DNA from: Perkinsus chesapeaki ATCC PRA-425
Lineage: Eukaryota; Protista; Perkinsozoa
Length of the DNA stretch: 64,000 bases
Assembly (NCBI GenBank): GCA_013115145.1
Contig: JAAPAO010000049.1
Coordinates: forward strand, 1-64,000
Direction of reading: 5' to 3'
The translations under genes and the position numbers were made by a program. Below, in pieces: positions 34,497 to 61,219 of the stretch; the stretch's first letter is position 1, and each line of letters starts with the position of its first letter. A model generated the notes under the pieces. The model saw nothing but the letters and a program-made list of their open reading frames with translations, ran no database searches and had not been told where the DNA came from.

Positions 34497-34520
34497 TAAA
34501 ACACTGAAGCGATAGTAAGG

Positions 34521-34785
34521 ATACCCTATTATAATACACTACCCTATTATAATACACTATACCCTATTATAATACACTATACCCTATTATAATACACTAT
34601 ACCCTATTATAATACANNNNNNNNNNNNNNNNNNNNNNNNNNNNNNNNNNNNNNNNNNNNNNNNNNNNNNNNNNNNNNNNNNNNNNNNNNNNNNNNNNNN
34701 NNNNNNNNNNNNACACTATACCCTATTATAATACACTATACCCTATTATAATACACTATACCCTATTATAATACACTATACCCTA
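34521..34785. repeat. 20-bp tandem repeat (ATACCCTATTATAATACACT)n spanning an assembly gap
   Basis: Near-perfect units on both sides of the N run (one 18-bp variant). The core TATTATAATA is a perfect palindrome. Followed by a poly-C tract. Confidence 0.95.
34617..34712. other. Assembly gap (96 N)
   Basis: N run inside the tandem array, so the true array length is unknown. Confidence 1.
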
Positions 34786-35057
34786 CCCCCCCCCAACATG
34801 GTGAAGGTCGCTTGAATCCAAGGCTCTCAGGTGCTCTAGCAACCCTAAGAAGATTCATTAGTGTAATCTTAACCCCAGAAGCGTGACATATCCTATCCGT
34901 CTCAGCTCCCCGACCACTCCTTTCCCGCTCAAATTGTGGCGCAACGGGACAGCCCTTCTTCTTCGCTCCGCTCTAGCGCAAGTATTTTACTAGCAGTGCT
35001 ACTACTACCTTTTGAATTAGCTTTTATAATACACCACTTTAAACAACTTTAACAATT

Positions 35058-44385: not shown

Positions 44386-45615
44386 TCACAGAACCATTAT
44401 TGATCGGTAGACCCCAAAACAGGATCCGATAGCAGAGATAACCAGTAGCGCGCCAAGCCCGCCAACGACAGCCATCCTTTCGGCTGAACCGTCCAAACGT
44501 TCTCCTCGTAAGTAAGATATTCTAAGCCAAAAAATGGTAGGATAGAAGTTGTGAATAAGTGAAAAGCATACTGAGCCTAGAAGGCCTACAAGACCTTGGA
44601 AGCTAGGAATCAGTATAGGGACAAGTATAGTAAAGCCCACCATAATAGTTCGAACCAGGATTGACCATAATATATTCTTATCTTCGATTCTTAAAGCTTT
44701 CTCGACTATCCTGAATGATGGGTTCATAAGGACAACGTAATGTGTAGCACAGACAACCAGTATAGAGAAAATGGCAATATAAGCAATGACACTCAACTTA
44801 TGACCAGTGGGAGACATTGCATCAATAACTGTATCAAAAGTCAGCAACTCATGGCCCCATCCTGCATAACCGGCTGCAGCTATGAAGAAATAAAGTACTA
44901 TTAATATTGACATTGAAATGTTAATAACGCGACTGCGTTGCTCTGGGTACTTCATGTCATGCAATATTGTCGTCGATGTACATGACACGGCGTAACCAAA
45001 AGTCATACTGGCAAATGTAATGCCAAGACCAACAAAGGAGGCTGGCGTGGGATCATAAGTGGCGGAGGAGTCTCGATTTATAGCCTTGAAGATTCCTCCA
45101 ACCACAATGGAGACAAGTAGAACAAACACGGCAGCAACTCCGACAGTTCCACTCACATACCCCACATGCTTCATTGTTCGTAGCCAGGAAAAAGGTAACA
45201 TAATTCCGCCCCAGATAAGTATCCAATACCTCTGATCTATCTGAGGAGCAAGCTTTACCGAGTTGGAGCCGAGTAAGAGCATCAATAGGCAGCTAGTTCC
45301 AATCAAGGCTGCATTAAGGGCTACCGTAACGCTTATCATACCAATTCGGCCGAAAGCTGCGCGGCCTATATCCTCATAGTTGTGAGTTTCAGAAGTCATA
45401 CATAGTCTAAGAAGTTGGATGTAAAGAATACCAAGTGCACCGCAGAGGATGAGGAGGACAAAGCCAAAGACATAGCCAGCCTCTGCAACGGCCCGAGGGA
45501 TACTTAACATTCCAACACCGACACCGGTGAGGAGCATGTTGGTAACCGCCGACCTCGAAGTCTGCTTACCGGCCTCGATCTTGATGGATGATGTCGACTC
45601 TAGAGTCATTGCCAT
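44386..45615 (-). CDS. Amino acid transporter, AAAP/Aa_trans family (copy 1), intronless
   Basis: ~11 hydrophobic segments; NMLLTGVGVGMLSIPRAVAEAG, HNYEDIG..AFG, DMKYP, GLVGLLGS signatures. Confidence 0.93.
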   Translation of the reverse strand: MAMTLESTSSIKIEAGKQTSRSAVTNMLLTGVGVGMLSIPRAVAEAGYVFGFVLLILCGALGILYIQLLRLCMTSETHNYEDIGRAAFGRIGMISVTVALNAALIGTSCLLMLLLGSNSVKLAPQIDQRYWILIWGGIMLPFSWLRTMKHVGYVSGTVGVAAVFVLLVSIVVGGIFKAINRDSSATYDPTPASFVGLGITFASMTFGYAVSCTSTTILHDMKYPEQRSRVINISMSILIVLYFFIAAAGYAGWGHELLTFDTVIDAMSPTGHKLSVIAYIAIFSILVVCATHYVVLMNPSFRIVEKALRIEDKNILWSILVRTIMVGFTILVPILIPSFQGLVGLLGSVCFSLIHNFYPTIFWLRISYLRGERLDGSAERMAVVGGLGALLVISAIGSCFGVYRSIMVL

Positions 45616-45851
45616 AAGATAACTCAATAATGAGGCTACTCAGGTCCTGAGGCATCCAGGTTCACGCACTGCTACCCTACGCCCCAGAGCTATACCGATA
45701 TACCCACGCGTGCGATAACTCAGAACTTTTTGATCAGAGGAAATCCATAGGTGATATGAGAAGTGTAGTCATTGGCATGCTCATCATCCATGGTGTTGCT
45801 GGCGCGATCATCACAATTTCCAACACCACCATAAGTACCAGGGCACAGGGA

Positions 45852-47675
45852 TTAAACCTGAGCCTGGAACTCCGAACTCTGCTCGATCTTGAACCAAACT
45901 AGCAATGCTTCGTACCATTCTTCATTCGTAAATGGAGGGTTCATGAAACTAGCAACCCACATTAAAGGATATGCTACTCTTTGTATTGTTGACTGTGATA
46001 CTGCCCAGGCGACACTCTCACTTAGGGCATAACTAAACACAGGAGAGAACAGACAGACGCAGCAGCCACACTAACCTCGACACAAAGACCCCATCAACAA
46101 CAAGCTCCCCTGTATCGGTGAGTGGGGCGAAAACTCCTTGCACGTCCCGAACTATGGCGATATCAACTAAGAGACTGCCACTCATCAATTTTTCAACATG
46201 CTCACCGTTCTTACCTATCCGTGACAGAGAGGGCCGCGTTAATGCCCTAATCACCACGGAATCCCCAATAGCAAGATCTCCAGCTCGGCGGAAATCATCT
46301 TTGCCGAAATCAACGCGTACAAGGTGGTCAACCGAGGCACGCAGCGCTCGGCCGTCGGCCATGCGAAGGGAGAGCTGAAGTAACGCACTGCTTCAAGTCG
46401 TTCAAGAGGATACCGCAAGATAGAAGAGGTAGTAGCTTAGAGCTGACGACACAACTAACCGGAGACCTTTGTATCAGAAGTACCTACGTAATGCATCTTC
46501 CGAGAAGTATCTTTGTGGATCCAGCCAACCACTGTAGTCGGGACTCCTTCAATTCCCGACACAATCCTGTCCCCAATTGTGATCTCCGACATATACTTCA
46601 TGGAGGAGGCTACAAGAAATAGTCAGCATTTAGATAACCAGCATTTCCTTCGATGCAGGCAGCTGATGCTACTCAACCTTGAGGCGACTTATCGAAGGGG
46701 CAACCTGCCTTGGCCTCGTGATATCTCCACCAGTGCATTGCCAGGGAAGCATGCCGGTCGACACAGCGACGTATACTCTTCGACCTGATAGGAAGGCCGG
46801 AGAAACGAGTGGGCGACGAGCATACCATGAGTTTACCAAGAGTATTAAGAAGATGGGCACCTTGCTTCGAGCGCGCCTTAAACCTCCGTTCCCTGCAAAG
46901 CACTAAGGCATTGATCTCGTCCCGGCATTCACGAGAACCTGCGAAGCGTACCGCTGTCCCCGATAAACGCGGAATTACAGAACTTCTTGTGATCTTTGGG
47001 CAAGTATGTGCTATGATGAAGCTCGCCACACTTATTGAGCTGAATAAGGCTGCACAAGCAATATGACAGAAATGGGTCGACGTTGCGGTATGCCGATGCC
47101 TGCAGATTGAGGTCTGCCTCACAATAGATGTCAACAGTATCTGAGCGAGAAGAGCGGAACTGAGCTTTCGCCGCATATCACTAGTGTGTACGATACCCAA
47201 CTGAAACAGGTCTAACCAGTAAGTAGGAACCATTAGCACGTGTTATACTGGCGTCCCTCTTTACCTAGAGCCTCCCTACGAAGGGAACGAGTGTATCTCA
47301 CGCTACTAAGTAGGCTCGGCTAGCTATCGAAGCCTTTACACTAAACACCTACCTTTATACTGCCCGATACTCGCGGTGCCCCATGAGGTACCTGGTATCT
47401 GAAACAGATCACGTTCGGGATGCTCTAGGGACACACAGTCGGCCACAAAGCGAAAGCTCACTTGGGTCTTGGTTAGGCCATTACCAAGCGAATGCACCGT
47501 GCCTAAGAACCTTTTCAAGTCAGTTACCCACTTTCGACACCTTACTGGTTTCCGATAACAGGGGAATGCAACACCAGACCAGAGCCCATAAGAGCCCTCC
47601 AGGAAGACGAATCCGCTGCAGTCGGTAAATGGCAAGACCTGAAGGATCCCAGTATCCCGGAGACGCGCAGTCCAT
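45852..47675 (-). CDS. Secreted Hog-domain (Hedgehog Hint + sterol-recognition-like) autoprocessing protein with a Cys-rich N-terminal domain
   Basis: Spliced CFPGNALVEISRG (Cys codon 46749-46751)...MSEITIGDRIVS...VVGWIHKD...LRASVDHLV...AGDLAIGD...GVFAPLTDTGELVVDGVFVS|SYA...IQRVAYPL...WYEALL. Hydrophobic N-terminus LLWALVWCCIPLL. The 5' exon structure is tentative. Confidence 0.85.
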
Positions 47676-47849
47676 GGTAGAAAATGCAGCTGAACTCGCG
47701 GAAATGATACTTCACAAGATTCCTAGGAAAACCGCATCCGAGAACAAGAACGAGAAGAAGACACTGTAGTGTAGATCCGGCGTCGGGACTTGTTCCAGAG
47801 AGAACTCGAGGGGAGCATCCATATCACACGGCTGTTCTTAATGCACTCG

Positions 47850-49223
47850 TTAATGCAATGCAGATCTACGTATATCGACAGAACGCAACAGAGACCAAGG
47901 AATAGACGAAGCGCAGATGGCTAACGTGATGACTGCATCATATATCCCACAGACAGAACCGACCAATGATATCAACAGCAAAAGGCAAAGAAGGACTATT
48001 TGAAGAATTGCCCGCTTAGATCCTGCTCTGAACTCACTCCAGAGAAAAAGGCTAATAAAAAATATAGGCGGATAGAAATTATGAATCAGAGAATAACAAA
48101 CGGAGCCCAAAAGGCCGATAAGACCCTGGAAATTAGGTACAAATATTGCAACAATAACGGTAAAGGCGACTAAAGTGCTTCTTATAGCACAAGATTTGAC
48201 AAACTGGCCTTCCTTGACATTAAAGGCATGTTCAAGTATACGACTCGATGGATTCAGCATGACAGCATAATGAGTAATACATAACAACAGAATACTACAT
48301 ATACTAATATAAGAGACTACATCATGACCAGAACCACTTCCAGTAACAGCATCAATAATATTCTGAAATTTAAGAAGAGAGTTTCCCCAACCAATATAAC
48401 CAGACAATGACACAAGGAAGTAGACAATAGCAATAATGCAAAGTCCCCAATAGACAACTCGTCGACGGGCTTGTGGATATTTCATATCATGTAACACGGT
48501 CGTACTGGCACATGTTACGGCAAAAGCAAGCGTCATACTTGCGAAAGACATACCCAGCCCAATAGCTGTGACAGGGTACGGGTCATGAGATATATCGTCA
48601 TGAATCTCAGGATTCAACGCTCGAGCGAACCCCGCATAAATGAGCACCAACAAAAGACATATAACCGAAGACACTCCTACTGTACCACTTATATAACCGA
48701 TATGCTTCATATTAGGCAACCATGAGAGCGGTAAGAGGATGCAAGTCCATATGAGTATCCAGTAGGGCTGCGGGATTGCTGGATAAAGCTTATATGAGTT
48801 TTGGCCAAGGAGTAGCATAAGCAAACAACATGTACCAATTAAAGCACCATTGACTCCAAATGTAACAGCAAATAATCCCCATCGACCAAAGACATCCATA
48901 CCGATATCTTCATAACTACGCGTTTCTGGTTTCATACAGGCACGTAGAAGTTGAGTATAGAGGATTCCGACAACAGCACTAAATACCATAAGAATAAATC
49001 CAAATGCATATCCAGCTTGAGCTATTGCCCTTGGTAGACTGAGCATTCCGACACCAATACCAGTGAGGGCAATGTTGGCCACGGCCGACATGTTCGACTG
49101 ACCATGCGATGGAGTGACACCTGACTTTATGCTGTCGATTGTATCAGATGCCTCTACGACTGGCATTGTGAATAAATCAAGATCGTATTCCCCTGAATCG
49201 CCAAACGCGCCATCTAGATGCAC
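47850..49223 (-). CDS. Amino acid transporter, AAAP family (copy 2), intronless
   Basis: GIGVGMLSLPRAIAQAG, RSYEDIG, DMKYP motifs; multi-TM. Confidence 0.93.
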   Translation of the reverse strand: MHLDGAFGDSGEYDLDLFTMPVVEASDTIDSIKSGVTPSHGQSNMSAVANIALTGIGVGMLSLPRAIAQAGYAFGFILMVFSAVVGILYTQLLRACMKPETRSYEDIGMDVFGRWGLFAVTFGVNGALIGTCCLLMLLLGQNSYKLYPAIPQPYWILIWTCILLPLSWLPNMKHIGYISGTVGVSSVICLLLVLIYAGFARALNPEIHDDISHDPYPVTAIGLGMSFASMTLAFAVTCASTTVLHDMKYPQARRRVVYWGLCIIAIVYFLVSLSGYIGWGNSLLKFQNIIDAVTGSGSGHDVVSYISICSILLLCITHYAVMLNPSSRILEHAFNVKEGQFVKSCAIRSTLVAFTVIVAIFVPNFQGLIGLLGSVCYSLIHNFYPPIFFISLFLWSEFRAGSKRAILQIVLLCLLLLISLVGSVCGIYDAVITLAICASSIPWSLLRSVDIRRSALH

Positions 49224-49386
49224 ACTGTGAAGAACGCAAATACTTCCGGTGATATGTGTTATTAAATGACTGCAACGATAGCATGACGGCTTCTCTTTTC
49301 AATGATGATATAAAGTATGGGAAGCGATCCAGAATAACTATGGCGGGAAGCCACCACTCAACTACAAGGATCATCTGCTGGCACAC

Positions 49387-50640
49387 TCAAGACACAAGCG
49401 TCAGAACAGAGTCGTAGATACCACAGATAGAGCCCGCAAGGGATATAAAGAGTAGAATAGTTAGTCCTACGAATTGCATAATATGGTATTTCGACCCGCT
49501 CCTCACTTTTTCCCAGATAAACAGACGAATGTAGAAGATCGACGGATAGAAGTTATGGATCAAGGAAAAACAAACAGAGCCTAGGAGACCTATAAGACCC
49601 TGGAAGTTGGGGACAAATATTGCAACAATAACGGTGAAGGCGACTAAAGTGCTTCTTATAGCACAAGATTTGACAAACTGGCCTTCCTTGACATTAAAGG
49701 CATGTTCAAGTATACGGCTTGATGGATTCAGTAAAACCGCATAATGCGTTACAGACAATAACAGAATACTACATATACTAATATAAGAGACTACATCATG
49801 ACCAGAACCACTTCCAGTAACAGCATCAATAATATTCTGAAATTTAAGAAGAGAGTTTCCCCAACCAATATAACCAGACAATGACACAAGAAAGTAGACA
49901 ATAGCAATAATGCAAAGTCCCCAATACACAACTCGTCGACGGGCTTGTGGATATTTCATATCATGTAACACGGTCGTACTGGCACATGTTCCAGCAAAAG
50001 CAAGCGTCATACTTGCGAAAGACATACCCAGCCCAATAGCTGTGACAGGGTACGGGTCATAAGATATATCGTCATGGATCTCAGGATTTAGATCTCGAGC
50101 GAACCCAGCATAAATGAGCACCAACAAAAGACATATAACCGAAGCCACTCCTACTGTACCACTTATATAACCGATATGCTTCATATTAGGCAACCATGAG
50201 ACCGGTAAGAGGATGCAAGTCCATATGAGTATCCAGTAGGGCTGCGCGATTCCTGGATAAAGCTTATATGAGTTTTGGCCAAGGAGTAGCATGAGCAAAC
50301 AACATGTACCAATTAAAGCACCATTGACTCCAAATGTAACAGCAAATAATCCCCATCGACCAAAGACATCCATACCGATATCTTCATAACTACGCGTTTC
50401 TGGTTTCATACAGGCACGTAGAAGTTGAGTATAGAGGATTCCGACAACAGCACTAAATACCATAAGAATAAATCCAAATGCATATCCAGCTTGAGCTATT
50501 GCCCTTGGTAGACTCAATATCCCGACACCGATTGTGGCGAGTACCATGTTAACCACCGCTGAGAAGTTAGACTGGCCATGACAGGGTGTGAGCTCAAGCT
50601 TAATGCTCTCAAGTGTTTGACTTGACTCTGGGATTGTCAT
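49387..50640 (-). CDS. Amino acid transporter, AAAP family (copy 3), intronless CDS, recent duplicate of copy 2
   Basis: Core nearly identical to copy 2. Likely start MTIPESS at 50640; the upstream ORF extension reads like a 5'UTR intron ending ATTTCAG. Confidence 0.93.
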   Translation of the reverse strand: MTIPESSQTLESIKLELTPCHGQSNFSAVVNMVLATIGVGILSLPRAIAQAGYAFGFILMVFSAVVGILYTQLLRACMKPETRSYEDIGMDVFGRWGLFAVTFGVNGALIGTCCLLMLLLGQNSYKLYPGIAQPYWILIWTCILLPVSWLPNMKHIGYISGTVGVASVICLLLVLIYAGFARDLNPEIHDDISYDPYPVTAIGLGMSFASMTLAFAGTCASTTVLHDMKYPQARRRVVYWGLCIIAIVYFLVSLSGYIGWGNSLLKFQNIIDAVTGSGSGHDVVSYISICSILLLSVTHYAVLLNPSSRILEHAFNVKEGQFVKSCAIRSTLVAFTVIVAIFVPNFQGLIGLLGSVCFSLIHNFYPSIFYIRLFIWEKVRSGSKYHIMQFVGLTILLFISLAGSICGIYDSVLTLVS

Positions 50641-51767
50641 TGATTTCGAACTGAAATTAACCTGAAATATGCTATACTTAAAACAAAGCACGCTTATAGA
50701 GATAAGACAAGCATCTCCTTTCCCTAGGTTCAATCCGATCTCATCACTCAAAAAGCAAAGATGGCAATAACGGGGCTAGAAAAGCAACGATAGTCTACAC
50801 TTAGGTAATACCGCCCGATTCACCTAGAGCAATTCGAGAAGCGCAGCTTGGAGGCTCCGAATCAACTACCATATAGCCTGTGTAGGAGGGTGGAAAATCC
50901 CCAAGAAGAGCTCACTCTTCGCCAAGCAAGGGCTGCGAAGATCGCCCTAGTGTACGCGTGCTGTACCCCACATCCACGCGCACAACAATCTGTACAGTAA
51001 TGGTTTGACTAAAAACATAGATAATTAATGATGTACGAGTGATCACTACCGACTACAACGAGATGTGTGCCTTAAAGTATTGCCCAGGATTACTCCTAGT
51101 AACTGCTCATTCTATCGTAATGTTTGGGGTTTGGATGCGTCACGGACTAACGCATGCGTGCAAATACCGTTGTGACAGCAAAAGCGGTCTACTTCTTGGG
51201 TACTAGTACTGATCTTATATCAGCGCGAAAATGCGTGTTCTTGGCTAATACAATCAGACGAGGAAGTAATATTCTTAGTCACAGAAGTGTTCCAAATACA
51301 ATATACCACCGAAACGGTAATCACGGCAATAGCTCAACTAAAGGGTATTCTCGAGGCCAATACTCTAGGCTGAGCCCTGGGATTTCTCCAACCCAACCAC
51401 CTGTGGAAGACTAACTCAAGAGGACTTTAGTAAGGAACACAGTAGATGAAACAGTTAAGCAGTAACAACAGTAGTAGGATATTCTACAACTGATGAATCA
51501 GCAAATAGCCCCCCATGACCCTAGGCCAAAAGAGGGCATTGTTGTGCTGGCTTTCCATAGGAAAAGTGTTTACCATCATACAGCGACGGCAGCGCTCTTT
51601 GTAGCATCGGTACAGGTACATGACGGACGAGCAGAACTCCGAACGTCAAAGACCGGTGCTACTGGGGATAGACAAAACGAGACCGAACCAGAAACGAATC
51701 AGGATCGACAATTTTGTGAATTGATTGAAAAGATGCTGTAAAATGTTAATGGTGGTTGTGGATTTAG

Positions 51768-53000
51768 TTACGCGCACAGCTCCTTTATAGCCGCATACAC
51801 ACCGAATCCAGAACCTATTACAGAGATGAACATCAGAAAACAAAGGAAAAGCGTAAATGCAATCCATTTAGGAGATCCAAAAATCTTCTCGCCTTTCAAA
51901 TGAGAAAGGCGTAGATAGAAAACTGATGGATAAATATTGTGGATTAGCGAGAAACAAATAGACCCAAGTAGATTGATAAGAGCTGAGAAGCTTGGAACAA
52001 ATATCGCTACCAGAACGGTAACGGCGACTAGGCAACTTCTAAGCAAGACCGATCTCACAATCTGATTACTCTTGATACCAACCCATTCCTCAAATATTCT
52101 GCACGCCGGATTCATCATAACAACATAATGTGTGGCACAGACTATAAGTATACCGACAATGCAAGTTGTAGCAACTGCAGAGTTATTACCAGGGACTGGT
52201 GCCATAGCAGTAATGATAGTATCAAAATGCAATAGCTCTTGTCCCCAACCAATATACCCTGCTAATGATGCTAATAAGAATAGCATGATTAGACAGATAA
52301 AAGATACCAAAAGGACCTTCGATTGTGCTTCAGGATGTTGCATATCCTTTAGAATAGTAGTGGTAGTACTCGTTACCGCATAAGAAAACGTCAACGTAGA
52401 AAACGTTGTACCGAGCCCAACTATCGAAATTGGAGCTGCCCGGTACGGTACGGCTTCTGTAGTCTCGACTCGCTCCTGGACACCCGCAATTATAATCATG
52501 ATCAAGACCACGACAACCGCCGCCACGCCCACAGTACCACTGAAATAACCAACTTGTTTCATAGTCCGCAGACAAGCTAATGGTAGCATTATAGCCGTCC
52601 ATATCAGTATCCAATACGTTTGGCTTATCTCTGGGGCTAGGAGAACAGAGTTCTGTCCCAATAGTAACATGAGTAGGCATCCAGTGCCCACAAGGGCAAC
52701 ATTTAATGCGATAGTAACCGCCATCATTCCCGGATATCCGAACGCATCCCGTCCAATATCCTCATAATTACGAGTACAGGGGTTCATACATTTCCGAAGC
52801 AAATGGGCGTCCAGTAGACCCTCCGCCCCACATGCTACCAGAAGGATAAACCCTAGAACGTACCCGGCTTGAGCTATCGCTCCTGGGAGACCAAGCAGAC
52901 CAACACCGATACCGGTGAGAATTATATTCACTATGGCCGAAAAATTCGACTGACCGGTTTCTTCTACCGAAATCTTACTGGTTTCCGATGATATTGACAT
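51768..53000 (-). CDS. Amino acid transporter, AAAP family (copy 4), intronless
   Basis: MSISSET...GIGVGLLGLPGAIAQAG...RNYEDIG...KDMQHP; multi-TM. Confidence 0.93.
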   Translation of the reverse strand: MSISSETSKISVEETGQSNFSAIVNIILTGIGVGLLGLPGAIAQAGYVLGFILLVACGAEGLLDAHLLRKCMNPCTRNYEDIGRDAFGYPGMMAVTIALNVALVGTGCLLMLLLGQNSVLLAPEISQTYWILIWTAIMLPLACLRTMKQVGYFSGTVGVAAVVVVLIMIIIAGVQERVETTEAVPYRAAPISIVGLGTTFSTLTFSYAVTSTTTTILKDMQHPEAQSKVLLVSFICLIMLFLLASLAGYIGWGQELLHFDTIITAMAPVPGNNSAVATTCIVGILIVCATHYVVMMNPACRIFEEWVGIKSNQIVRSVLLRSCLVAVTVLVAIFVPSFSALINLLGSICFSLIHNIYPSVFYLRLSHLKGEKIFGSPKWIAFTLFLCFLMFISVIGSGFGVYAAIKELCA

Positions 53001-53444
53001 AATAAAGGAAGTAACGTAACTGAATCTAGAAGAGGTGCAAATGTGTAAACGCCCAGCAAAAGTAATGCGGCAAATGCAATGGAACGCCATCACACAAACG
53101 ACAACGAATAAGCCCGCAGCCTAGTGTTCAAATGTGTACAAGGCTTTTAGCTAAGGAAAATCCATTGTATTCTCAGGACACAAATATATGAGCTGGCAAG
53201 GCAGCTCTCCGAAACCTGATGGTCTTCGAAGGATCTAGACAAACACCTGGTAATATTTAACGCGAACACGGGTTCCCACCAGCCCCAATGCTACTGGCAC
53301 TGCAAACGGAACCGCATTGGAAGAGGAGCGTCACCGTGCAACTCACACGTCAATCTCGCGCGCCTCGAATATAGGATTTAACAGCGCTACTTCCATCTCG
53401 CTCGCCTGAAACTATCATATGTATTGTCACGGAAATCTTAAGGA

Positions 53445-53693
53445 TGATGGGATTCGCCATAACTGGTAACTCAATGCCGCTAGGCGCAAGTAAAACTAGC
53501 TACAAATGATCTTATACTCAACTATCTTCAGATCTATATCATCTAGATACCCATTATCGAAGGCCACGGTTACAATATTGGGCGAGCGAGATCTAATAAT
53601 AGTCCCAGGAAACCAATGCCGACGGTTGACACCGTTTAGCATAATATAAGCGACCGATATCCGCTGGCCAATCATGAGACTGGGAGTCTCATC
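53445..53693 (-). repeat. 3' LTR (249 bp)
   Basis: Direct repeat of 60150-60398; overlaps the last ~200 nt of the integrase ORF. Confidence 0.95.
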
Positions 53694-55409
53694 GCGCCCC
53701 CCTTGTGGGCCTCCACAAGCATCAGACGGGATCTTCCATTGCACCGCATCCAAGCGTATCATAACAGGGGTATTGTCATTACCATCCAAGAACCATACCC
53801 ATAGTTTATTGGAATAATCGCAAGGATCGTATGTCACTCTAGCGGATCGCCAAGCGGAAGTGGAGTCCATTTTAACATCAATATACATACCTTCTCGAGA
53901 AACAACAGCAGAACCATCGCACGGATAAGGGTACAACATAACAATATTGTAAAGGTTCTCGGTAGTGACCAAGCCATTTGCCAACCTTACTTTGACACGC
54001 CGTCCCGAGATGCACTCGATGATATGGCCCATCCGAAAACTCATACCGAGCTTACGGCCTCCCATATAGACCAAAACACAATCTCCAGGACGAAAGGTGC
54101 CTCGGACTTTACCGTCGCAAGCAGTAGATCGGCATTTCTGAGCAACAGCGGTGAGGGAACGGTCTTTGAGATCACGCCACAGCCACTGCATAAAACAGTT
54201 CCTAACCGCGCGAACGCGATTGGGACACAACGACTCGTGACCATTAGCAGATTCTTGGACCGCCTCGACACAGCCCCGCGACCGAGTACGGCCACAGTGC
54301 AAACTATCTGGAGTGATGATATCGGCGCCTTCCTCAGAAACATAGAAGCTGCCCAGAGGGCGAGTGTTCAGCAGTAACATTACCTCCTCCAGTAGCTCAT
54401 CCTGCGCGTCCGCATTCTCCGGCCAACGCCCCGCAGTATGGCGCAACATCACTCGCAAACGGTCACTAGCAATGCCGTGAAGCTTCTCGGATCCGAGCTC
54501 CCAAGGCGCCCGGCTGGAAATCAGCTCGACCCGAGCATTGATCTCAGAGCTGACTTTAGAGACAAAATTCTCCTCAGTCCGGAAATAACTAGCACGATCA
54601 CACACCACGATAGCAACGGAACCAGTGCGTAACTTGAGCAATCGAAGAACACGGAGAGCTTCACGAGCGGTCTCGCTAGAGACTCTAAAAAGGCTTATGT
54701 GCTTACTATACAAACAGCAAGCCGACATAACTTTCCATTTATCCCCCACCGAGTAGAAGTCTATAGCAACCTTATAGTAAGTAGGCATCCTCGCCAGGAA
54801 TGTTTCATCGGAGTGACCAACAGAAGGAAGCTGTGTCCAATCCCGTCTCGCACGCAGGATCTTACAAACGTGGCACTGAGCCACTAGGTCCTTCATTTGC
54901 CGGCCACAACCATCCATATGAAACATAGTACACCGCGACAAAGAATCTCGCACCCCAGCATGTCGACAAGCTCGATGGCCATCAAGAAGAATCTTTCGCC
55001 TCACAGAATCTGCTGCCCTAGGTATAACATAACGGAGGACTTGAGTACCATAGGGACTACCCGAGCGAAAGACAACTAAACCATCAGCATCGCACAATAA
55101 GGGGCCACACGCGGGACCTTTGCCAGCTCGAATCTCCTGACATCGCACATCATCAGCTTGAGCATTTGCCACTACAACTTTACGATCGTCATCACTAAAC
55201 ATATGGGGGTATTCCAGACCATTGGCCTCTCCGCCCCCCTTGACATTCCACTTTAATAGGTGAATGACAAAACGTAAGGCTTTAAACGAATGACAAATAG
55301 CATCAAAGCTGAACGACTGCTTAGCCACACGATTAGACAGACTTGTCGTCTCATCAGACCGATCAGTCTCAGCAAACCGAATGTAGTCCTCGACCAGTTG
55401 GTCAACCAA
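53496..55409 (-). CDS. Integrase region: HHCC, DDE core, SH3-like (DUF5641-type) domain, two Tudor-like domains
   Basis: GHRACRHAG...CHVC; AIDFY / VCDRASYF / APWELGSEKL; FRPGDCVLVY; GMYIDV...WRSARV...WVWFLDG; GQRISV...WFPGTII...VAFDNG. No ATG start; overlaps pol in the -1 frame. Confidence 0.9.
   Translation of the reverse strand: MVDQLVEDYIRFAETDRSDETTSLSNRVAKQSFSFDAICHSFKALRFVIHLLKWNVKGGGEANGLEYPHMFSDDDRKVVVANAQADDVRCQEIRAGKGPACGPLLCDADGLVVFRSGSPYGTQVLRYVIPRAADSVRRKILLDGHRACRHAGVRDSLSRCTMFHMDGCGRQMKDLVAQCHVCKILRARRDWTQLPSVGHSDETFLARMPTYYKVAIDFYSVGDKWKVMSACCLYSKHISLFRVSSETAREALRVLRLLKLRTGSVAIVVCDRASYFRTEENFVSKVSSEINARVELISSRAPWELGSEKLHGIASDRLRVMLRHTAGRWPENADAQDELLEEVMLLLNTRPLGSFYVSEEGADIITPDSLHCGRTRSRGCVEAVQESANGHESLCPNRVRAVRNCFMQWLWRDLKDRSLTAVAQKCRSTACDGKVRGTFRPGDCVLVYMGGRKLGMSFRMGHIIECISGRRVKVRLANGLVTTENLYNIVMLYPYPCDGSAVVSREGMYIDVKMDSTSAWRSARVTYDPCDYSNKLWVWFLDGNDNTPVMIRLDAVQWKIPSDACGGPQGGRDETPSLMIGQRISVAYIMLNGVNRRHWFPGTIIRSRSPNIVTVAFDNGYLDDIDLKIVEYKIICS
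53697..53704 (-). promoter_or_regulatory. Polypurine tract (AAGGGGGG)
   Basis: Purine run 3 nt before the 3' LTR on the element strand. Confidence 0.7.
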
Positions 55410-58177
55410 GGGCTACATTCGGTTTCATGACCAACTTGGTCATGAACCTCATCGTTCACAGAAACTAGATATGAGACTTTATCAACAAGTGGCTGCTCAT
55501 AATGGGGTTGCCACTCAGAGTCTAGAGGATCTTCTGTGTGGTCGAAGATTGCCCAGGCATTGCTGCCTCGCATAGGATCACGAGCAACCTCTTCGTCAAG
55601 ACCACCTTCGTCACACAAACACTGATGTAACGATAATCCAGACGCAACCAATCGCGCCTCAAAGACTCTTGAAAGTAAGTCTGCCTCGTCGTTGCGGGAA
55701 CCCTCGATGTGATGAACAGAGACATCTGAGAGCTCACGCATTCGTGATAACTCAGCCAGTAATCCACTCACTAACCTGGATAATACTCGGCGCTCGACCC
55801 CCCGAGACTCTTTGAGGAGATCAGCGCTATCGCAGGAAGTGGCCCACCGGACACATGACAGATTATCACAATAGATCTCAACCTTGATGCGACCCTCAAC
55901 ACTTGTGGTAGATGAGACTCCAGTAACACTTTGCCTGTACTCGAGGAAGTCGACAATCATCTGAGTCATCCTTAAAAGGACAACCAACTCGCGACGATTC
56001 GAGTGCCAGTTTACCTCGCTCTTCTTAAATCGGTAGACTTCACTGAAGAGACGAGTGGCGTCAGCAAAGGCTACAATACCACCACCAGATGAAGACGCAT
56101 CGCAGTAGCAACGGAGAACGATCGGGCTGGCTTCGATTGGCCTAACCTCGGAAGTGTGCCGGCAGGTTTCCCTAACCAGCTCTTCCATCCAATCTAGCAT
56201 ACACCGGAAAGCCGCATAAGCATTGTCGGTCAGACGAGAAAGATCAATCTGGGTGTCCCAAGGCTCTCTGTGAAAACATCGAGCAATAAGCGACCGGATA
56301 GCATCGCCACAACCCCTAGCATATGGGTGTTGCTTCCCAGGGTCGTAGCTTAGACACCCACCGGCCTTGAAAACATCAATCTTGCTGACCTGAGCTGTCG
56401 TGCGACAACGCTCAATGAACGAAACCACCACAGCCAATCGTTTCTCTCGTTGACATGTCAATACTATTAAACTGCTCTCGTAACGGACTCGCATGCCGAG
56501 GAAGGAACCCTCGCTAGCAACAGCGATCTCGACACCGCATTCAGAGAGCAACGAAAGTAGTTGATGCTGTTTGTCTTCTGTAACCATTATGAACACTTTC
56601 CGCATCTGTACATCAAACCCCGCCCGAAGGAGGAGACATAACAGCAACTTGAACATAAAGACGACCACGCGGATGGTTCCGGAGATGGCCATATCATCCA
56701 CAAACAACATCAACATCAACGTCCAGAGCTGTTGCAAAAGCAAAGCACACAGCTGCTGGATTCGGTGAAAATCTATAGACCGGGCAGAGCATACCAACCG
56801 ACCAAGAGAGCCAGAGAGCCCACAGGGCCCAAAGACCACTCCGAAACATAAACGGCATGAGGCAAACAATTCACCGGTCCCTGACCGAAGGTGTAAAACG
56901 TTGTTCACACATCGGCATTTGTAAAAGGCTGCCCGAGCATCCAGAAGGAAGGTACACTCTCTGGACTCTGCTCGCAGTAATGCGATAGGGTGAAATAACA
57001 ATGGCACATCACTGCTAGCGGGCGGTAACGCCTTATTTACACAACGGAAATCCACGACCAAACGGCTTTTGCGAGAGGTAGTTGGTGGTATGAGAAAAAC
57101 CTGAGCGGCTGCTGCCGACTCGCCGACCCCCTTCACGGAGCACTCAGTACTCGAGGTCGGGATCCACCAACGAGAAAGGACATACTCTTGAACTAGCCGG
57201 CGATACTCGCTTTTTAAAGGATCACTCAAGCGAGAATATAACGACGCCGCATAGGAACGACCTTTCTCCTGTACCGTCTTGGGTGTTGGAACCCAGATCT
57301 CACAAACATGAGTCTGCTCCACGACATCCGTCGTTTCACAAGGAGCGAGCTCACGAACCCTGCTCTTGTAAGCACCGTTGGTCTTAGGGATAACCTTCCA
57401 CCCTTCATGGACAACTTGGCTCAGGATTTCATCGACAATACCTGACTCGTGCGGTTGAAGATCGGCACGAAGAACTCGGTCAGGCTTGCTCGGAACGGTC
57501 GATGATGAATCCACACAACCATGAGTGGTAGAAATAAAACCTTCATCCTTGTAGTCACCGATGTTATTTAGGACATCTATATCTAGCTCTACGACTTGTG
57601 CTACTGAGCCTAGACCACCGAATTCTTCGGGAGAGTCACTCTGACGGTAAACACACTCCCCACCGACATGCATATAGGTCGCTCCTCGAGACTCTAACCC
57701 CCACTCTTCGATAAGCTGTCGGCCAGCAAGGACCAATAACTCATCGTTAGGAACAACACCAGGAGATGGGAGTATACGGAGCTCACAGTCGACGAATTCG
57801 GATACCAAGGTTCTAGACTCAAAGCCGTAGACAGCTATTTTACAATCAATCTGATGCTGGATGGCCACTCTCTGACCGTTCGCCATGGCAACGAGGGTGC
57901 TACCCCCGGTACCATTAACCGAACAGCCAATAGCATCAAGAGCCACTATGGCTTTATCTACACTTGATACTAATAAATAAGGCCGGCCAGCACCGGAATC
58001 TACTACGCATCGTGCCTCCAAGAATGGAGAATCAGATGCAAAACGTGCAGGACTAATTCGCACCCTCAAAGACATCTCGGGTGGTACAGGAGTTAAAAGG
58101 GAAATAACATCAAAAATAGAAGAAGTCGGATGTCCGAGAGCTAATGTATCACTAGGCACATCGCCCTCATCATTCAT
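55253..58177 (-). CDS. Pol: aspartic protease, reverse transcriptase, RNase H
   Basis: VVDSGAG (PR); RLVVDFRCVN, LLDARAAFY, RLCFGV, LFVDD (RT); YCDASS, RRELVV, YCDN, HIEGSRNDEADLLSR (RH). Confidence 0.93.
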   Translation of the reverse strand: MNDEGDVPSDTLALGHPTSSIFDVISLLTPVPPEMSLRVRISPARFASDSPFLEARCVVDSGAGRPYLLVSSVDKAIVALDAIGCSVNGTGGSTLVAMANGQRVAIQHQIDCKIAVYGFESRTLVSEFVDCELRILPSPGVVPNDELLVLAGRQLIEEWGLESRGATYMHVGGECVYRQSDSPEEFGGLGSVAQVVELDIDVLNNIGDYKDEGFISTTHGCVDSSSTVPSKPDRVLRADLQPHESGIVDEILSQVVHEGWKVIPKTNGAYKSRVRELAPCETTDVVEQTHVCEIWVPTPKTVQEKGRSYAASLYSRLSDPLKSEYRRLVQEYVLSRWWIPTSSTECSVKGVGESAAAAQVFLIPPTTSRKSRLVVDFRCVNKALPPASSDVPLLFHPIALLRAESRECTFLLDARAAFYKCRCVNNVLHLRSGTGELFASCRLCFGVVFGPCGLSGSLGRLVCSARSIDFHRIQQLCALLLQQLWTLMLMLFVDDMAISGTIRVVVFMFKLLLCLLLRAGFDVQMRKVFIMVTEDKQHQLLSLLSECGVEIAVASEGSFLGMRVRYESSLIVLTCQREKRLAVVVSFIERCRTTAQVSKIDVFKAGGCLSYDPGKQHPYARGCGDAIRSLIARCFHREPWDTQIDLSRLTDNAYAAFRCMLDWMEELVRETCRHTSEVRPIEASPIVLRCYCDASSSGGGIVAFADATRLFSEVYRFKKSEVNWHSNRRELVVLLRMTQMIVDFLEYRQSVTGVSSTTSVEGRIKVEIYCDNLSCVRWATSCDSADLLKESRGVERRVLSRLVSGLLAELSRMRELSDVSVHHIEGSRNDEADLLSRVFEARLVASGLSLHQCLCDEGGLDEEVARDPMRGSNAWAIFDHTEDPLDSEWQPHYEQPLVDKVSYLVSVNDEVHDQVGHETECSPWLTNWSRTTFGLLRLIGLMRRQVCLIVWLSSRSALMLFVIRLKPYVLSFTY

Positions 58178-58192
58178 CCCTTCTAGTTTCCC
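58128..58192 (-). promoter_or_regulatory. Programmed -1 ribosomal frameshift signal (G GGA AAC + 6-nt spacer + hairpin)
   Basis: The heptamer immediately precedes the gag TAG; a -1 shift reads GGG AAA CTA GAA GGG ATG into pol. Downstream stems GGATG/CATCC, GAGGGC/GCTCTC, ATGTG/TACAT. Confidence 0.8.
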
Positions 58193-60165
58193 GAACCAGA
58201 CTTCTCGCCGCTCTTAACCATTGGGTCGCTCTTGTGGTTACCACTTTCGTCATCTTTCTTGACAAGGTCTTCTATTTCCCATACTCGGAATTTTCCAGAT
58301 GGGAGAGAGGATACACTAGATAACCCGCCCTCTCGGTTGTGATAACCAACGATATAATAAGTACGACCGTAACGGTTATGACGAGAAAGAACGCCATCTG
58401 GTTTACACATAGATATCATCTCCTGCTTATTCCTGCAACCATAACCAGTCACGCCAAACGCCGCTGCGTACCGACCACAAAACTCTCTGAAGGCTGACCT
58501 CGATTTTCCACCTTGGTCGCTAGATTGGTTTTGCTTATCGGTGCCGGGGACACCATGAATGGCCCCGACAGAGTCATTGATTGGCGGTGACCTTTGAGGA
58601 ATAATGCTGTTTGTCTCTTCCATAAGTCTGGCCTCGCTGCGGATGTACTCCACGATAGTGTCCTGAACAAATGGACCAGTGCAATGAAGAGGGACAGCAC
58701 TTTCCCAATCGCTGTCTGATGATGCTTTTTGTTTACAGCGACGGATCACACCCTGGACCATATCTCTCGGCAACTTGGATAGAATTTGCCTCACGAACTG
58801 GATCAACTGGGCATCGGTGGATCCTGCGCTATAAACCACGCGATAAATCTCGCAAGCCGCAACCACTTCCTTCAAATATGAATCGATGTCCCTGGCGGAC
58901 TTGAACTTGAGTCCAGAGACAATGGAAGTGAGTTTCTCCACGAGAACACTCCTGCGAGCATGAACAGCCATACATGCCTGCTTTATAGCAGTCCAATCAT
59001 TCCCATTGGTATTGTAAGTCCTCTTGGCAGTATCAAGAACATCAGGACACTTCTCTAAAGTGTTGAGGAATTTTTGGACACAGGCATGCTTTAGACCAAA
59101 ATGGGGTTGAAAGTTACCGTTCTCGTCATAAAAACCACCACCAGCCTCATATAAAACTTCTTCAATCCTCAGCGCATGCTGGGCAAACTCATGGCTCTTG
59201 CCCAACGATTGAGTAGCAATTTTTCCAACATCTGCAGATTCGCACTTCTTGGGAAGATTCTGAACATTCACTCTTGGAGCTTCGACATTGGACGCTGAGT
59301 CGCCCGGGTACACATCACGCTGATGATCAGGGGAAGCTGATAACATAAGAGCCCTTGAAGCTTGGCTAGACTGGTGATAACTCATTGCCGATGCCCCAAC
59401 TGCTATTACCGGAGATCCGCTAGGATCTATTGGTAAAGCTACTGGTTGCAAGGAACCCGGTAGAGGGACACCTTGCTGAATAGGAGCTTGATGAGGAACA
59501 GCTGGTCTATGAAACACTTGTTGGGGAACACTTTGTTGAAGAGCAGCTTGTTGATAAACAGCTTGTTGATGAAAGACTTGTTGTGCCGGAAGACTGTAAC
59601 GATCCTGTTGTGACACTGCTGAACGTGCTTGAAGTTCTCCACTTCGTCTCGATAAGGTAGAATGAACACTATCAATACGACCTTGATTGAGCACTTGTTG
59701 AGTAGCACTGCTCGGGGCAGGTGGTGTAACGTATTGACGAATTATACCAGAGTTCGAAGAGGAAACTCTAGAGGCATTTGACCGTCCCAATGCTTGGGAA
59801 TTTAACTCGGTCAACTGATCATGCCTCAACTCCAAGGCTATCACGTATGCGCCAGCTTCTTCTAGAACAGCTCGGAGATCAGCTTCTTGCTCTGCGAGAG
59901 TATCACAAACCCTCTCATCATCTTCACTCACAATAATAATGTTATTAAGTCTCTCAACAACATCACGCAACTTCGATCGAATCTTGCCTCTGTGAATCCT
60001 TGCCTTCTTAAGTTCTTCTCGCAAAGATTCTGGGGAGTCGAATAAGGCGGCTGACTCGATGAACGACGGCCTTCGAATAAGAACAGACGGGCGTTCTTGT
60101 ACGCCAGCCGCAGACCCTTCTATCGGGTTCGGATGTGTAGGTGTCGCCATGATGGGATTCGCCAT
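58183..60165 (-). CDS. Gag-like protein of the retrotransposon (660 aa)
   Basis: First ORF after the 5' LTR, with its ATG inside the LTR end. N-terminal coiled coil, Q-rich repeats, helical capsid-like middle; no CCHC knuckle seen. Confidence 0.8.
   Translation of the reverse strand: MANPIMATPTHPNPIEGSAAGVQERPSVLIRRPSFIESAALFDSPESLREELKKARIHRGKIRSKLRDVVERLNNIIIVSEDDERVCDTLAEQEADLRAVLEEAGAYVIALELRHDQLTELNSQALGRSNASRVSSSNSGIIRQYVTPPAPSSATQQVLNQGRIDSVHSTLSRRSGELQARSAVSQQDRYSLPAQQVFHQQAVYQQAALQQSVPQQVFHRPAVPHQAPIQQGVPLPGSLQPVALPIDPSGSPVIAVGASAMSYHQSSQASRALMLSASPDHQRDVYPGDSASNVEAPRVNVQNLPKKCESADVGKIATQSLGKSHEFAQHALRIEEVLYEAGGGFYDENGNFQPHFGLKHACVQKFLNTLEKCPDVLDTAKRTYNTNGNDWTAIKQACMAVHARRSVLVEKLTSIVSGLKFKSARDIDSYLKEVVAACEIYRVVYSAGSTDAQLIQFVRQILSKLPRDMVQGVIRRCKQKASSDSDWESAVPLHCTGPFVQDTIVEYIRSEARLMEETNSIIPQRSPPINDSVGAIHGVPGTDKQNQSSDQGGKSRSAFREFCGRYAAAFGVTGYGCRNKQEMISMCKPDGVLSRHNRYGRTYYIVGYHNREGGLSSVSSLPSGKFRVWEIEDLVKKDDESGNHKSDPMVKSGEKSGSGN
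60132..60149 (-). promoter_or_regulatory. Putative primer-binding site (TGGCGACACC...)
   Basis: TGG starts immediately after the LTR-terminal CA; implies a primer tRNA ending GUGUCGCCA (G73). Cognate tRNA not identified. Confidence 0.55.
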
Positions 60166-60398
60166 AACTGGTAACTCAATGCCGTTAGGCGCAAGTAAAA
60201 CTAACTACAAATGATCTTATACTCAACTATCTTCAGATCTATATCATCTAGATACCCATTATCGAAGGCCACGGTTACAATATTGGGCGAGCGAGATCTA
60301 ATAATAGTCCCAGGAAACCAATGCCGACGGTTGACACCGTTTAGCATAATATAAGCGACCGATATCCGCTGGCCAATCATGAGACTAGGAGTCTCATC
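60150..60398 (-). repeat. 5' LTR (249 bp)
   Basis: Direct repeat of 53445-53693. Confidence 0.95.
60201..60380 (-). CDS. LTR-internal 59-aa ORF encoding a single Tudor-like domain (uORF of gag)
   Basis: ATG at 60380 to TAG at 60201-60203: MIGQRISVAYIMLNGVNRRHWFPGTIIRSRSPNIVTVAFDNGYLDDIDLKIVEYKIICS*. Translation is unproven. Confidence 0.45.
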   Translation of the reverse strand: MIGQRISVAYIMLNGVNRRHWFPGTIIRSRSPNIVTVAFDNGYLDDIDLKIVEYKIICS

Positions 60399-60733
60399 AG
60401 GACAAGCGACTCCGAGATTCCAAGAGGCCGAGTATCCTTTGTCGTTTCCTTATTAGTGAAACGGTCAGCACGGATTTCTGAATTAAGACAACTTAAATGA
60501 TTAGTAGTAAATTACACGTGATGATATAGCGCATGTTTATACCGACATTGCTAGCTCTCAGCTTGCTTCTCCCCGACGGCGGTTGCGTAGACACAAATCC
60601 ATCAACTTGAAGGCATCAAGCTCTAATATGTGACAACAAATACCAACAAACTAGGACGGTTTCTTTATTTACCGCTGAGAGTCGCCACGAATAAGAAATC
60701 GCCACAGCCAGCGATCTGACCGTCAAAACCAGA

Positions 60734-60806
60734 GCGGCTTTGGCGCAGTAGGTAGCGCGTAGGTCTCATAATCCTAAGGTCGCGAGTTCGATCCTCGCAG
60801 GCCGCA
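60734..60806 (+). tRNA. tRNA-Met (CAU), elongator type
   Basis: Cloverleaf GCGGCTT/AGGCCGC, GCGC/GCGC, TAGG/CCTA with a T31-T39 mismatch (typical of eukaryotic elongator Met), loop CTCATAA, GCGAG-TTCGATC-CTCGC; 73 nt. Confidence 0.97.
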
Positions 60807-60811: not shown

Positions 60812-60860
60812 AAAGGCATCGTGGCCTCAAAAGTTCCCGATCAGTTTGCTATTCGTCCAG

Positions 60861-61120
60861 GGCCGGTATGCGGATCCTGATCCACACGTGATCCTGAGAA
60901 AAAGATCACAGAAAAAGATCAACGCACTGATTTTCTGCCGTGAACCTGATTTTTTGGCTCAGATCAATAAATTCGGGATCACGCAGCAGGATCATAGCTC
61001 AGTCGGATGATCTGTGGATCACAGCACCTGTGATCCTGCTAGTTTTGGATCAGGATCGTAGATCATGGATCAACGACACATAATATCTGGATCATTCAAG
61101 ATCCGATGACTGAGAGATCG
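60861..61120. repeat. Left GATC-rich subterminal array of the Harbinger
   Basis: About 18 GATC by manual count in ~260 bp, mostly as (G/A)GATCA or TGATCC. Confidence 0.9.
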
Positions 61121-61219
61121 TGCACCGCGAAACTGCTATTGCTCATTTTGGCGGAGCGATGCTGCTTCGCTCCGTCTTCTGCGCATATCCGATAACGAAT
61201 TGGCTTGAATAGTTTTTAA

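What the first reader, a model, noticed from the sequence alone, without database searches (positions are those of the whole stretch)
60150..60398. The LTR itself encodes a complete 59-aa Tudor-like microprotein
Seen: about 200 of the 249 LTR bases are integrase coding sequence. An in-frame ATG near the LTR start makes the last Tudor domain a self-contained ORF (ATG 60380 to TAG 60201) in each LTR, ending 35 nt before the gag ATG. Both LTR differences in the integrase-coding part are synonymous. Inference: the 5' LTR or solo LTRs could express a free Tudor protein (a competitor or anti-silencing factor), or the ORF could be a uORF controlling Gag. An almost fully protein-coding LTR is unusual.
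Basis: partly seen in the sequence, partly recalled or inferred. Interest (0 to 1): 0.78.

Follow-up and report, generated by a model that had tools for sequence, protein, structure and literature searches.

The report
Integrase Tudor domain encoded inside LTR
In a jumping gene of the clam parasite Perkinsus, the integrase gene runs on into the short end repeat, so both repeats carry the code for its last domain, predicted to be Tudor-shaped; the stand-alone 59-amino-acid frame is likely a by-product of this layout, already known from plant centromeric retrotransposons, and not a separate protein.

Summary
A 6.95-kb LTR retrotransposon of Perkinsus chesapeaki (likely BEL/Pao-related) has 249-nt LTRs that are 86% coding: 198 nt of integrase, a 35-nt spacer and 16 nt of gag. 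The 59-aa ORF is predicted to fold as a Tudor barrel closest to RDM15, with the three aromatic cage positions kept.

The free-microprotein or uORF reading is weakly supported. Two P. marinus relatives (one cluster; 80% and 73% identical) keep this domain after the polypurine-tract motif but have no methionine in it. Two P. chesapeaki relatives have one at other positions. No RNA data were available.

Best reading: the integrase frame reads through the polypurine tract, its terminal reader domain lies in U3, and reverse transcription copies it into both LTRs. This layout is published for plant CRM group A elements, and a Tudor on a retrotransposon is published for Ectocarpus Gypsy-10. This scan already noted Tudor-bearing BEL/Pao integrases on other DNA.

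New here: the CRM-like layout in an apparently unrelated lineage, a nearly all-coding LTR, and a first Tudor lacking a cage residue while the LTR-encoded one keeps it. This copy's integrase is out of frame with Pol. Interest moderate.

The parts
60150..60398 (-). 5' LTR (249 nt; probably 250 nt from 60399, TGATG...CATCA)
53445..53693 (-). 3' LTR; 3 differences from the 5' LTR; its first 198 nt end the integrase ORF
60201..60380 (-). 59-aa ORF in the 5' LTR = copy of the integrase's terminal Tudor-like domain (Tudor 2)
60166..60200 (-). 35-nt spacer, the only non-coding part of the LTR; ends in a GTTATGGCG motif shared with the LTR of relative L001
58183..60165 (-). gag-like ORF, 660 aa; first ATG inside the LTR, second in-frame ATG (60150) at the LTR/PBS junction
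   Evidence: no Pfam gag family matched, so 'gag' rests on position
60139..60149 (-). primer-binding-site-like TGGCGACACCT directly after the 5' LTR; not complementary to the neighbouring tRNA-Met; primer tRNA unknown
58186..58192 (-). G GGA AAC slippery heptamer just before the gag stop; the -1 frame runs into pol (programmed frameshift inferred)
   Evidence: stable fold over and after the site, z -2.99
55253..58177 (-). protease-RT-RNase H ORF, 974 aa
   Evidence: motifs read from the sequence; family profile hits solved RTs; no Pfam hit of its own
53496..55202 (-). integrase ORF, 568 aa: zinc-binding part, core, SH3-like C-terminal domain, Tudor 1, PPT-coded linker, Tudor 2; out of frame with RT-RNase H in this copy
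53730..53903 (-). Tudor 1 (before the PPT); Arg at the position of RDM15 Tyr623
   Evidence: sequence-based only, no structure model obtained
53694..53704 (-). polypurine-tract-like AAGGGGGGCGC abutting the 3' LTR, translated as part of Gln-Gly-Gly-Arg
53496..53675 (-). Tudor 2 as the last 59 residues of integrase, wholly inside the 3' LTR
60734..60806 (+). host tRNA-Met(CAT) gene, divergent, 334 nt from the LTR start

Best explanation
The 59-aa frame is the last domain of the element's integrase, encoded just past the polypurine-tract-like motif inside the LTR; it is likely copied into the 5' LTR simply because reverse transcription duplicates U3, and it likely works only as the integrase's fused, predicted methyl-mark reader that would steer insertion. 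Shown: the reading frame, the LTR layout, synonymous-only listed divergence, and the domain kept in P. marinus relatives with no methionine. Predicted: the Tudor fold and its aromatic cage. Inferred: that the G-rich motif is the working PPT, so the domain lies in U3; that the element's RNA starts downstream of ATG 60380, or that this part is lost as an outron; that the domain binds methylated histone tails; and that Tudor 2 took over reading from a Tudor 1 that lost a cage residue. In this copy the integrase is out of frame with Pol, so it is likely defective.
For: (1) The ORF is the integrase C-terminus letter for letter. (2) P0152 (80% identical) and P0004 (73%) from P. marinus keep Tudor 2 after GGRD, 68% identical to this one in P0152, with no Met from there to the stop. 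(3) Reading through a PPT-like Gly-Gly motif near the end of Pol is a family habit: 15 of the first 60 proteins, against 49 of 2325 background windows (motif chosen after seeing the data). (4) Relative L001 has an LTR of about 110 nt with the same GTTATGGCG motif and no Tudor code, so the Tudor code is an addition to a minimal LTR. (5) Model pLDDT 91, five strands; best match the RDM15 Tudor 7DE9, Z 8.8, rmsd 1.6, 52 aligned, the only one of 48,161 chains at Z 8 or more; also first by Foldseek and by family profile, E 1.4e-4. (6) The Tyr623-equivalent site is aromatic in 3 of 3 Tudor 2 and 15 of 16 single-Tudor relatives, but Arg or Gly in 5 of 5 Tudor 1 of this clade. (7) The same layout is published for CRM group A.
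Against: No transcript data, so use of ATG 60380 is untested. All 3 P. chesapeaki clade members have a Met near the domain start: here, 3 codons further in (P0002), and about 3 codons earlier (P0003, if its domain starts where I assume). 2 of 6 linkers hold a Met against 0.79 expected. P0152 and P0004 are one 90% cluster, so they are not independent. Pfam Tudor hits are all below the curated cut-offs, Foldseek gave no match at E 0.001 or better, and the foamy-virus integrase ranked second. RDM15's two acidic H3K4me1 contacts are Asn and Tyr here, so the ligand is unknown. No binding or insertion bias was shown.
Confidence: 0.8

Rival explanations
1. Dual use: besides ending the integrase, the ORF in 5' or solo LTRs is transcribed (for example by read-through from flanking host DNA, then trans-spliced at the AG 4 nt before the ATG) and makes a free Tudor protein that competes with integrase or host readers for the same mark.
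For: The ORF covers the whole predicted fold. An AG lies at LTR positions 13-14 in both LTRs. Related LTR copies without integrase upstream exist, and no change at the ATG is listed for them (table cut by 4 rows). Perkinsozoa trans-splice (PMC9399869, abstract start and passages). The element lies head-on to a tRNA gene and on the same strand as the transporter genes behind it. 3 of 3 P. chesapeaki clade members have a Met near the domain start.
Against: No Met at all in P0152 and P0004, and none up to the end of the partial P0023. The Met position differs in every member that has one. An ATG this early is expected 14-28% of the time by chance. AG dinucleotides are common: 14 in the LTR.
Confidence: 0.1
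2. The ORF is an upstream ORF on the element's genomic RNA that limits Gag translation by reinitiation across the 35-nt spacer.
For: It ends 35 nt before an in-frame gag ATG. The U3/R border is unmapped, so an RNA start in the first 18 nt is formally possible.
Against: It would need a U3 of at most 18 nt. Relatives with the same layout lack the ATG. L001 keeps the gag-start motif without any Tudor code. By general knowledge, a 59-codon uORF allows little reinitiation.
Confidence: 0.05
3. The domain is not a methyl-mark reader but a second SH3-like integrase C-terminal domain that binds DNA or helps the intasome assemble.
For: The foamy-virus integrase is second in Foldseek (TM 0.67). Small beta-barrels give middling Z-scores to many folds. 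Pfam Tudor scores are below cut-off.
Against: The profile search ranks RDM15, Agenet and KDM4 Tudors first. The three cage positions are aromatic. The ordinary integrase C-terminal domain is already present upstream.
Confidence: 0.05

Closest known systems
Plant CRM-clade group A centromeric retrotransposons (Neumann et al. 2011, PMC3059260; Weber et al. 2013, PMC3605345; passages read)
   Same: [quoted passage not shown] LTR ends TGATG...CATCA.
   Different: CRM elements are Ty3/gypsy chromoviruses of plants with a CR motif, LTRs of 299-1,225 bp, a tRNA-Met primer site and a 5-bp target duplication. Here: a protist host, a Tudor-like domain, a 249-250-nt LTR that is 86% coding and also holds a gag start, a primer site unlike the local tRNA-Met, a 3-4-bp duplication, and likely a BEL/Pao-related lineage. 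It works like CRM in layout; it is not a member.
Gypsy-10_Ec32 of Ectocarpus (PMC12477816; passage read), called there the first reported TE with a Tudor domain
   Same: C-terminal Tudor domain on the polyprotein of an LTR retrotransposon.
   Different: That one is a Gypsy in stramenopiles. The passage read says nothing of the domain lying in the LTR or of two Tudors.
Arabidopsis RDM15 Tudor domain, PDB 7DE9 (PMC8184781; passages read)
   Same: Best structural and profile match; the cage W616/Y623/Y641 corresponds to Y10/F22/F39 here (my count on the alignment).
   Different: D643 and D645, which give H3K4me1 specificity, are N41 and Y43 here; about 20% identity; host protein, not a TE.
BEL/Pao retrotransposons (Belpaoviridae)
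   Same: Order protease-RT-RNase H-integrase. 12 of 22 long relatives scanned carry the Pao peptidase family.
   Different: This element's own proteins match none of PF05380, PF03564, PF18701. Gag and Pol are joined by an inferred -1 frameshift. No RT tree with named references was built.
HIV nef, MMTV sag, Ty1 gag start in the LTR, Ty1 p22 (all recalled, no call)
   Same: Coding sequence in U3 or across the PPT; a gag start inside the LTR; a truncated self-protein as a restriction factor is the model for the free-Tudor idea.
   Different: Nef and Sag are separate genes with their own mRNAs; here the LTR code is the tail of integrase.

Membership tests
LTR retrotransposon | Two LTRs with inverted ends, PBS, PPT, target duplication | tested here: met
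   duplication length (3 or 4 bp) unresolved; primer tRNA not found
LTR retrotransposon | RT, RNase H and DDE integrase | tested here: met
   family profile hits solved RTs and foamy-virus integrase; weak rve and Integrase_H2C2 hits
BEL/Pao | Pao peptidase (PF05380), DUF1759 and DUF5641 domains | tested here: inconclusive
   no hit on this element at E up to 1; PF05380 in 12 of 22 long relatives, which are distant
BEL/Pao | RT groups with named BEL/Pao references in a tree | not tested
   no named reference set was fetched
CRM group A | Integrase targeting domain coded downstream of the PPT, inside the 3' LTR | tested here: met
   against PMC3059260 and PMC3605345
CRM group A | CR motif as the targeting domain; primer site for tRNA-Met; plant host | tested here: not met
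   Tudor-like fold; PBS unlike the local tRNA-Met; host Perkinsus
CRM group A | Centromeric localisation | not testable with these tools
   no genome held
Tudor / Royal-family reader | Five-stranded beta-barrel of Tudor type | tested here: met
   (predicted model)
Tudor / Royal-family reader | Pfam Tudor family above curated cut-off | tested here: not met
   Tudor_3 15.6 bits against 25.8; Agenet 15.2 against 27
Tudor / Royal-family reader | Aromatic cage | tested here: met
   Y10, F22, F39 by alignment to RDM15; sequence position only
Tudor / Royal-family reader | Binds methyl-lysine or methyl-arginine | not testable with these tools
   needs a binding assay
Independent LTR-encoded protein (Sag or Nef type) or uORF | Start codon conserved among relatives with the same layout | tested here: not met
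   none in P0152 and P0004; other positions in P0002 and P0003
Independent LTR-encoded protein (Sag or Nef type) or uORF | Transcript containing the ATG, and its translation | not testable with these tools
   only contigs were available

The most novel reading that the evidence does not exclude
This lineage has emptied its LTR of promoter DNA, relies on host read-through transcription and trans-splicing, and uses the freed U3 twice: as the integrase's methyl-mark reader at the 3' end, and as a free 59-aa Tudor made from 5' and solo LTRs that competes for the same mark, so that every leftover LTR becomes a brake on further insertion.
Probability: 0.1. Interest if true: 0.78.

Novelty: new variant of a known kind. 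Interest (0 to 1): 0.42.

Why it matters
It appears to be an independent arrival at the CRM design (integrase targeting domain coded inside the LTR), in a protist lineage and with a different reader. With only 35 non-coding bases, it is a small natural test of how little dedicated regulatory DNA an LTR needs in a trans-splicing organism. Tudor-bearing retrotransposons were first reported only in 2025 (PMC12477816), and Perkinsus keeps ordinary nucleosomes next to the histone-poor dinoflagellates (PMC6723414), so the bound mark would be informative. If the free protein were real, solo LTRs would be protein-coding regulators, which would be a surprise; the evidence gathered leans against it.

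Tried and rejected
No whole genome was held, so solo LTRs and insertion sites could not be counted. No RNA holder was listed, and two guessed RNA runs laid 0 contigs; this is no evidence on expression. A search for stand-alone 32-104-aa relatives of the ORF found no candidate, which the tool says is no evidence either way. The Atlas gave only leads under 0.9, several of them Tudor or Agenet clusters. Viral-contig scans with P0005, P0011 and a 22-nt LTR pattern found nothing. The metagenome scan gave one locus, L001. Tudor 1 and Tudor 2 of this element do not align by BLASTP and the 24-domain tree was too weak to place them (2 starred of 21 branches), so a simple recent duplication of Tudor 1 is not supported and the origin of Tudor 2 is open. 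The 121-row integrase tree did not finish; one search used the 48 top-scoring of 121. Base composition before the ATGs did not separate the Tudor ATG in its 5' context from host or gag starts. The bacterial promoter scan does not apply to this organism. An assembly error at the Pol/integrase frame break was rejected as far as contigs allow: a 6,527-nt contig crosses it with 0 differences in 4 of 4 runs from 2 samples, which may be the source of the window. Literature searches for a Ty3 precedent and for BEL/Pao in protists gave nothing usable.

Full report
Observation. The window holds one LTR element on the minus strand, 60398 to 53445. Its two repeats are 249 nt long and differ at three positions. 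The 568-aa integrase ORF runs through a G-rich tract that abuts the 3' repeat and ends 198 nt inside it. ATG 60380 opens a 59-aa ORF in each repeat, ending 35 nt before ATG 60165. Both coding differences are synonymous. ATG 60165 is also inside the repeat, so 214 of 249 nt code for protein. The repeat is probably one base longer, TGATG...CATCA, because a related LTR contig aligns up to 60399; the target duplication is then TCC, and TCCT on the shorter reading.

Host and element. The C-terminal region is identical to the Perkinsus chesapeaki gene model FOL47_007938. No genome was held. The order is gag-like ORF, protease, RT, RNase H, integrase. A slippery heptamer before the gag stop leads into pol in the -1 frame. 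The integrase found 173 relatives at E up to 0.001, of which the best 150 were listed. The named close ones are from P. chesapeaki, P. marinus and P. olseni; others are unnamed metagenome proteins. Of 22 long relatives scanned, 12 carry the Pao peptidase family, but this element matches none of the BEL/Pao Pfam families itself. 'BEL/Pao-related' is therefore likely, not shown. The internal region is covered by one 6,527-nt contig with no differences in the parts laid. It crosses the frame break between RNase H and integrase, while relatives read through in one frame. This copy is likely defective.

The domain. Pfam gives only sub-threshold Tudor and Agenet hits. With 16 relatives' domains as alignment, the model has pLDDT 91 and five strands. 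Its best match is the RDM15 Tudor, PDB 7DE9: Z 8.8, rmsd 1.6, the only one of 48,161 chains at Z 8 or more. It is also first in Foldseek, though no match there reaches E 0.001 and a foamy-virus integrase is second, and first in a profile search. RDM15's cage is W616, Y623, Y641, with D643 and D645 selecting H3K4me1 (PMC8184781, passages). By my count on the alignment these are Y10, F22, F39, N41 and Y43 here. A methyl-mark pocket is predicted; its ligand is not. A profile built from 24 domains hits 35 of 167 fetched proteins, seeds included. Most have one Tudor-like domain, placed before the Gly-Gly motif that the PPT encodes where that motif can be seen. This element, P0002 and the P. marinus pair P0152/P0004 have two, the second after the motif. 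This element, P0002 and P0152 form a clade with P0003 (support 100; 48 top-scoring of 121 rows). In this group the first Tudor has Arg or Gly at the Y623 site (5 of 5, counting the partial P0023), while the second has an aromatic (3 of 3), as do 15 of 16 single-Tudor relatives. So the LTR-coded domain is the one likely to read marks.

Is the ORF a protein of its own? Against: P0152 (80% identical) and P0004 keep the domain, 68% identical in P0152 against 83% for the core, with no methionine between the PPT motif and the stop. They are one cluster, and their LTR border is inferred from the protein. An ATG this early is expected 14-28% of the time. Pol reading through a PPT-like motif is a family habit: 15 of 60 proteins against 49 of 2,325 background windows (motif chosen after the fact, one of the 15 is a fused model, many of the 60 are partial). 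Relative L001 has an LTR of about 110 nt with the same gag-start motif and no Tudor code, so the working LTR core is small and the Tudor code sits in front of it. For: the ORF spans the whole fold; an AG precedes the ATG; P0002 and P0003 have a Met near the domain start, at other positions; 2 of 6 linkers hold one against 0.79 expected. At least two further LTR contigs, 8 differences in 92 and in 123 nt, stop at the LTR start with no integrase behind them, so 5' or solo LTRs exist. All 7 listed changes inside the ORF are synonymous, and none is listed at the ATG, but 4 rows were not shown. That pattern shows selection on the domain, which the integrase role explains alone. Expression could not be tested.

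Mechanism. Shown: frame, layout, constraint, and loss of the Met across species. Inferred from standard LTR biology: DNA past the PPT is U3, and U3 is copied to the 5' end at each cycle, so an integrase tail coded there appears in both LTRs and in solo LTRs whether or not it is used there. Predicted: a methyl-mark reader that would tether the integrase to chromatin (Perkinsus keeps ordinary nucleosomes; PMC6723414, passages). The element's RNA must include the integrase stop at LTR position 198 at its 3' end and a gag start at its 5' end. The simplest arrangement puts the R region in or near the 35-nt spacer, leaving ATG 60380 untranscribed or in an outron. I give this 0.8, the free protein 0.1, the uORF 0.05 and a non-reader barrel 0.05.

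What is known. [quoted passage not shown] Ectocarpus Gypsy-10_Ec32 is called the first TE with a Tudor domain (PMC12477816, passage). HIV nef, MMTV sag and Ty1 p22 are recalled, not checked. I found no paper on Perkinsus LTR elements: one search listed 14 papers holding both terms, none with such a title, and I read passages of one (PMC3706591, on DNA transposons); searches added none. Repbase, subscription papers and supplements were not seen and may describe these elements. Other passages read: PMC9399869, PMC7175516, bioRxiv 10.1101/2021.11.30.470311, PMC5371799 (nothing relevant). Two earlier notes of this scan describe Tudor-bearing BEL/Pao integrases on other DNA; they agree with my reading but are not independent evidence. 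Two others describe genes in LTRs of other families, untested here.

Verdict. A real and well-observed feature, with an ordinary explanation for the stand-alone ORF. It is a new variant of a known kind: CRM-like layout, Tudor reader, very compact LTR. Interest 0.42. The open points worth a test are where transcription starts in an LTR with 35 non-coding bases, what Tudor 2 binds, and whether the position next to a tRNA gene is a habit of the family.

Noticed in passing
window 60399-60806: The element's 5' end lies 334 nt upstream of the only tRNA gene that ARAGORN finds in the 64 kb, head to head, as yeast Ty1 does (PMC7175516, passages). One insertion cannot show targeting, and this tRNA sequence is on many contigs.
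   Followed up: partly
window 60150-60139; proteins: The primer-binding site doubles as the first gag codons (last LTR A + TGGCGAC = Met-Ala-Thr). 10 of 24 fetched proteins of 1,600 aa or more start with MAT, four of them from one cluster.
   Followed up: partly
window 58186-58192: Canonical -1 slippery heptamer right before the gag stop, with a stable fold around it. The public gene model FOL47_007938 appears to bridge the frame changes with introns instead.
   Followed up: partly
window about 55250-55450: Frame break in the linker between RNase H and integrase; relatives P0156, P0181 and P0182 read through in one frame, so this copy is likely defective unless a second recoding site exists.
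   Followed up: partly
L001 1-1038: Short element-like contig: LTR end, primer site, then straight into mid-integrase, Tudor, PPT and an LTR of about 110 nt. It may be an internally deleted non-autonomous copy or a misassembly.
   Followed up: partly
window 53685-54659 (contig in runs X2, X3, X5): A roughly 82% identical relative of the integrase occurs in one sample only; its alignment stops 9 nt into the LTR at 80% likeness.
   Followed up: no
window 60858-61130 and 60531-60605: Multi-copy sequence with a sharp boundary just after the tRNA gene, and a short shared motif upstream of it (loose ends).
   Followed up: no
window 44386-53090: Tandem cluster of at least four intron-poor amino-acid transporter ORFs on the element's strand (2 of the 4 were scanned by Pfam).
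   Followed up: no
window 34500-34805: 20-nt tandem repeat around an assembly gap, just before an ORF with a weak primase zinc-ribbon hit.
   Followed up: no
window 9939-17682: Dynein heavy chain exons; ordinary host gene.
   Followed up: yes
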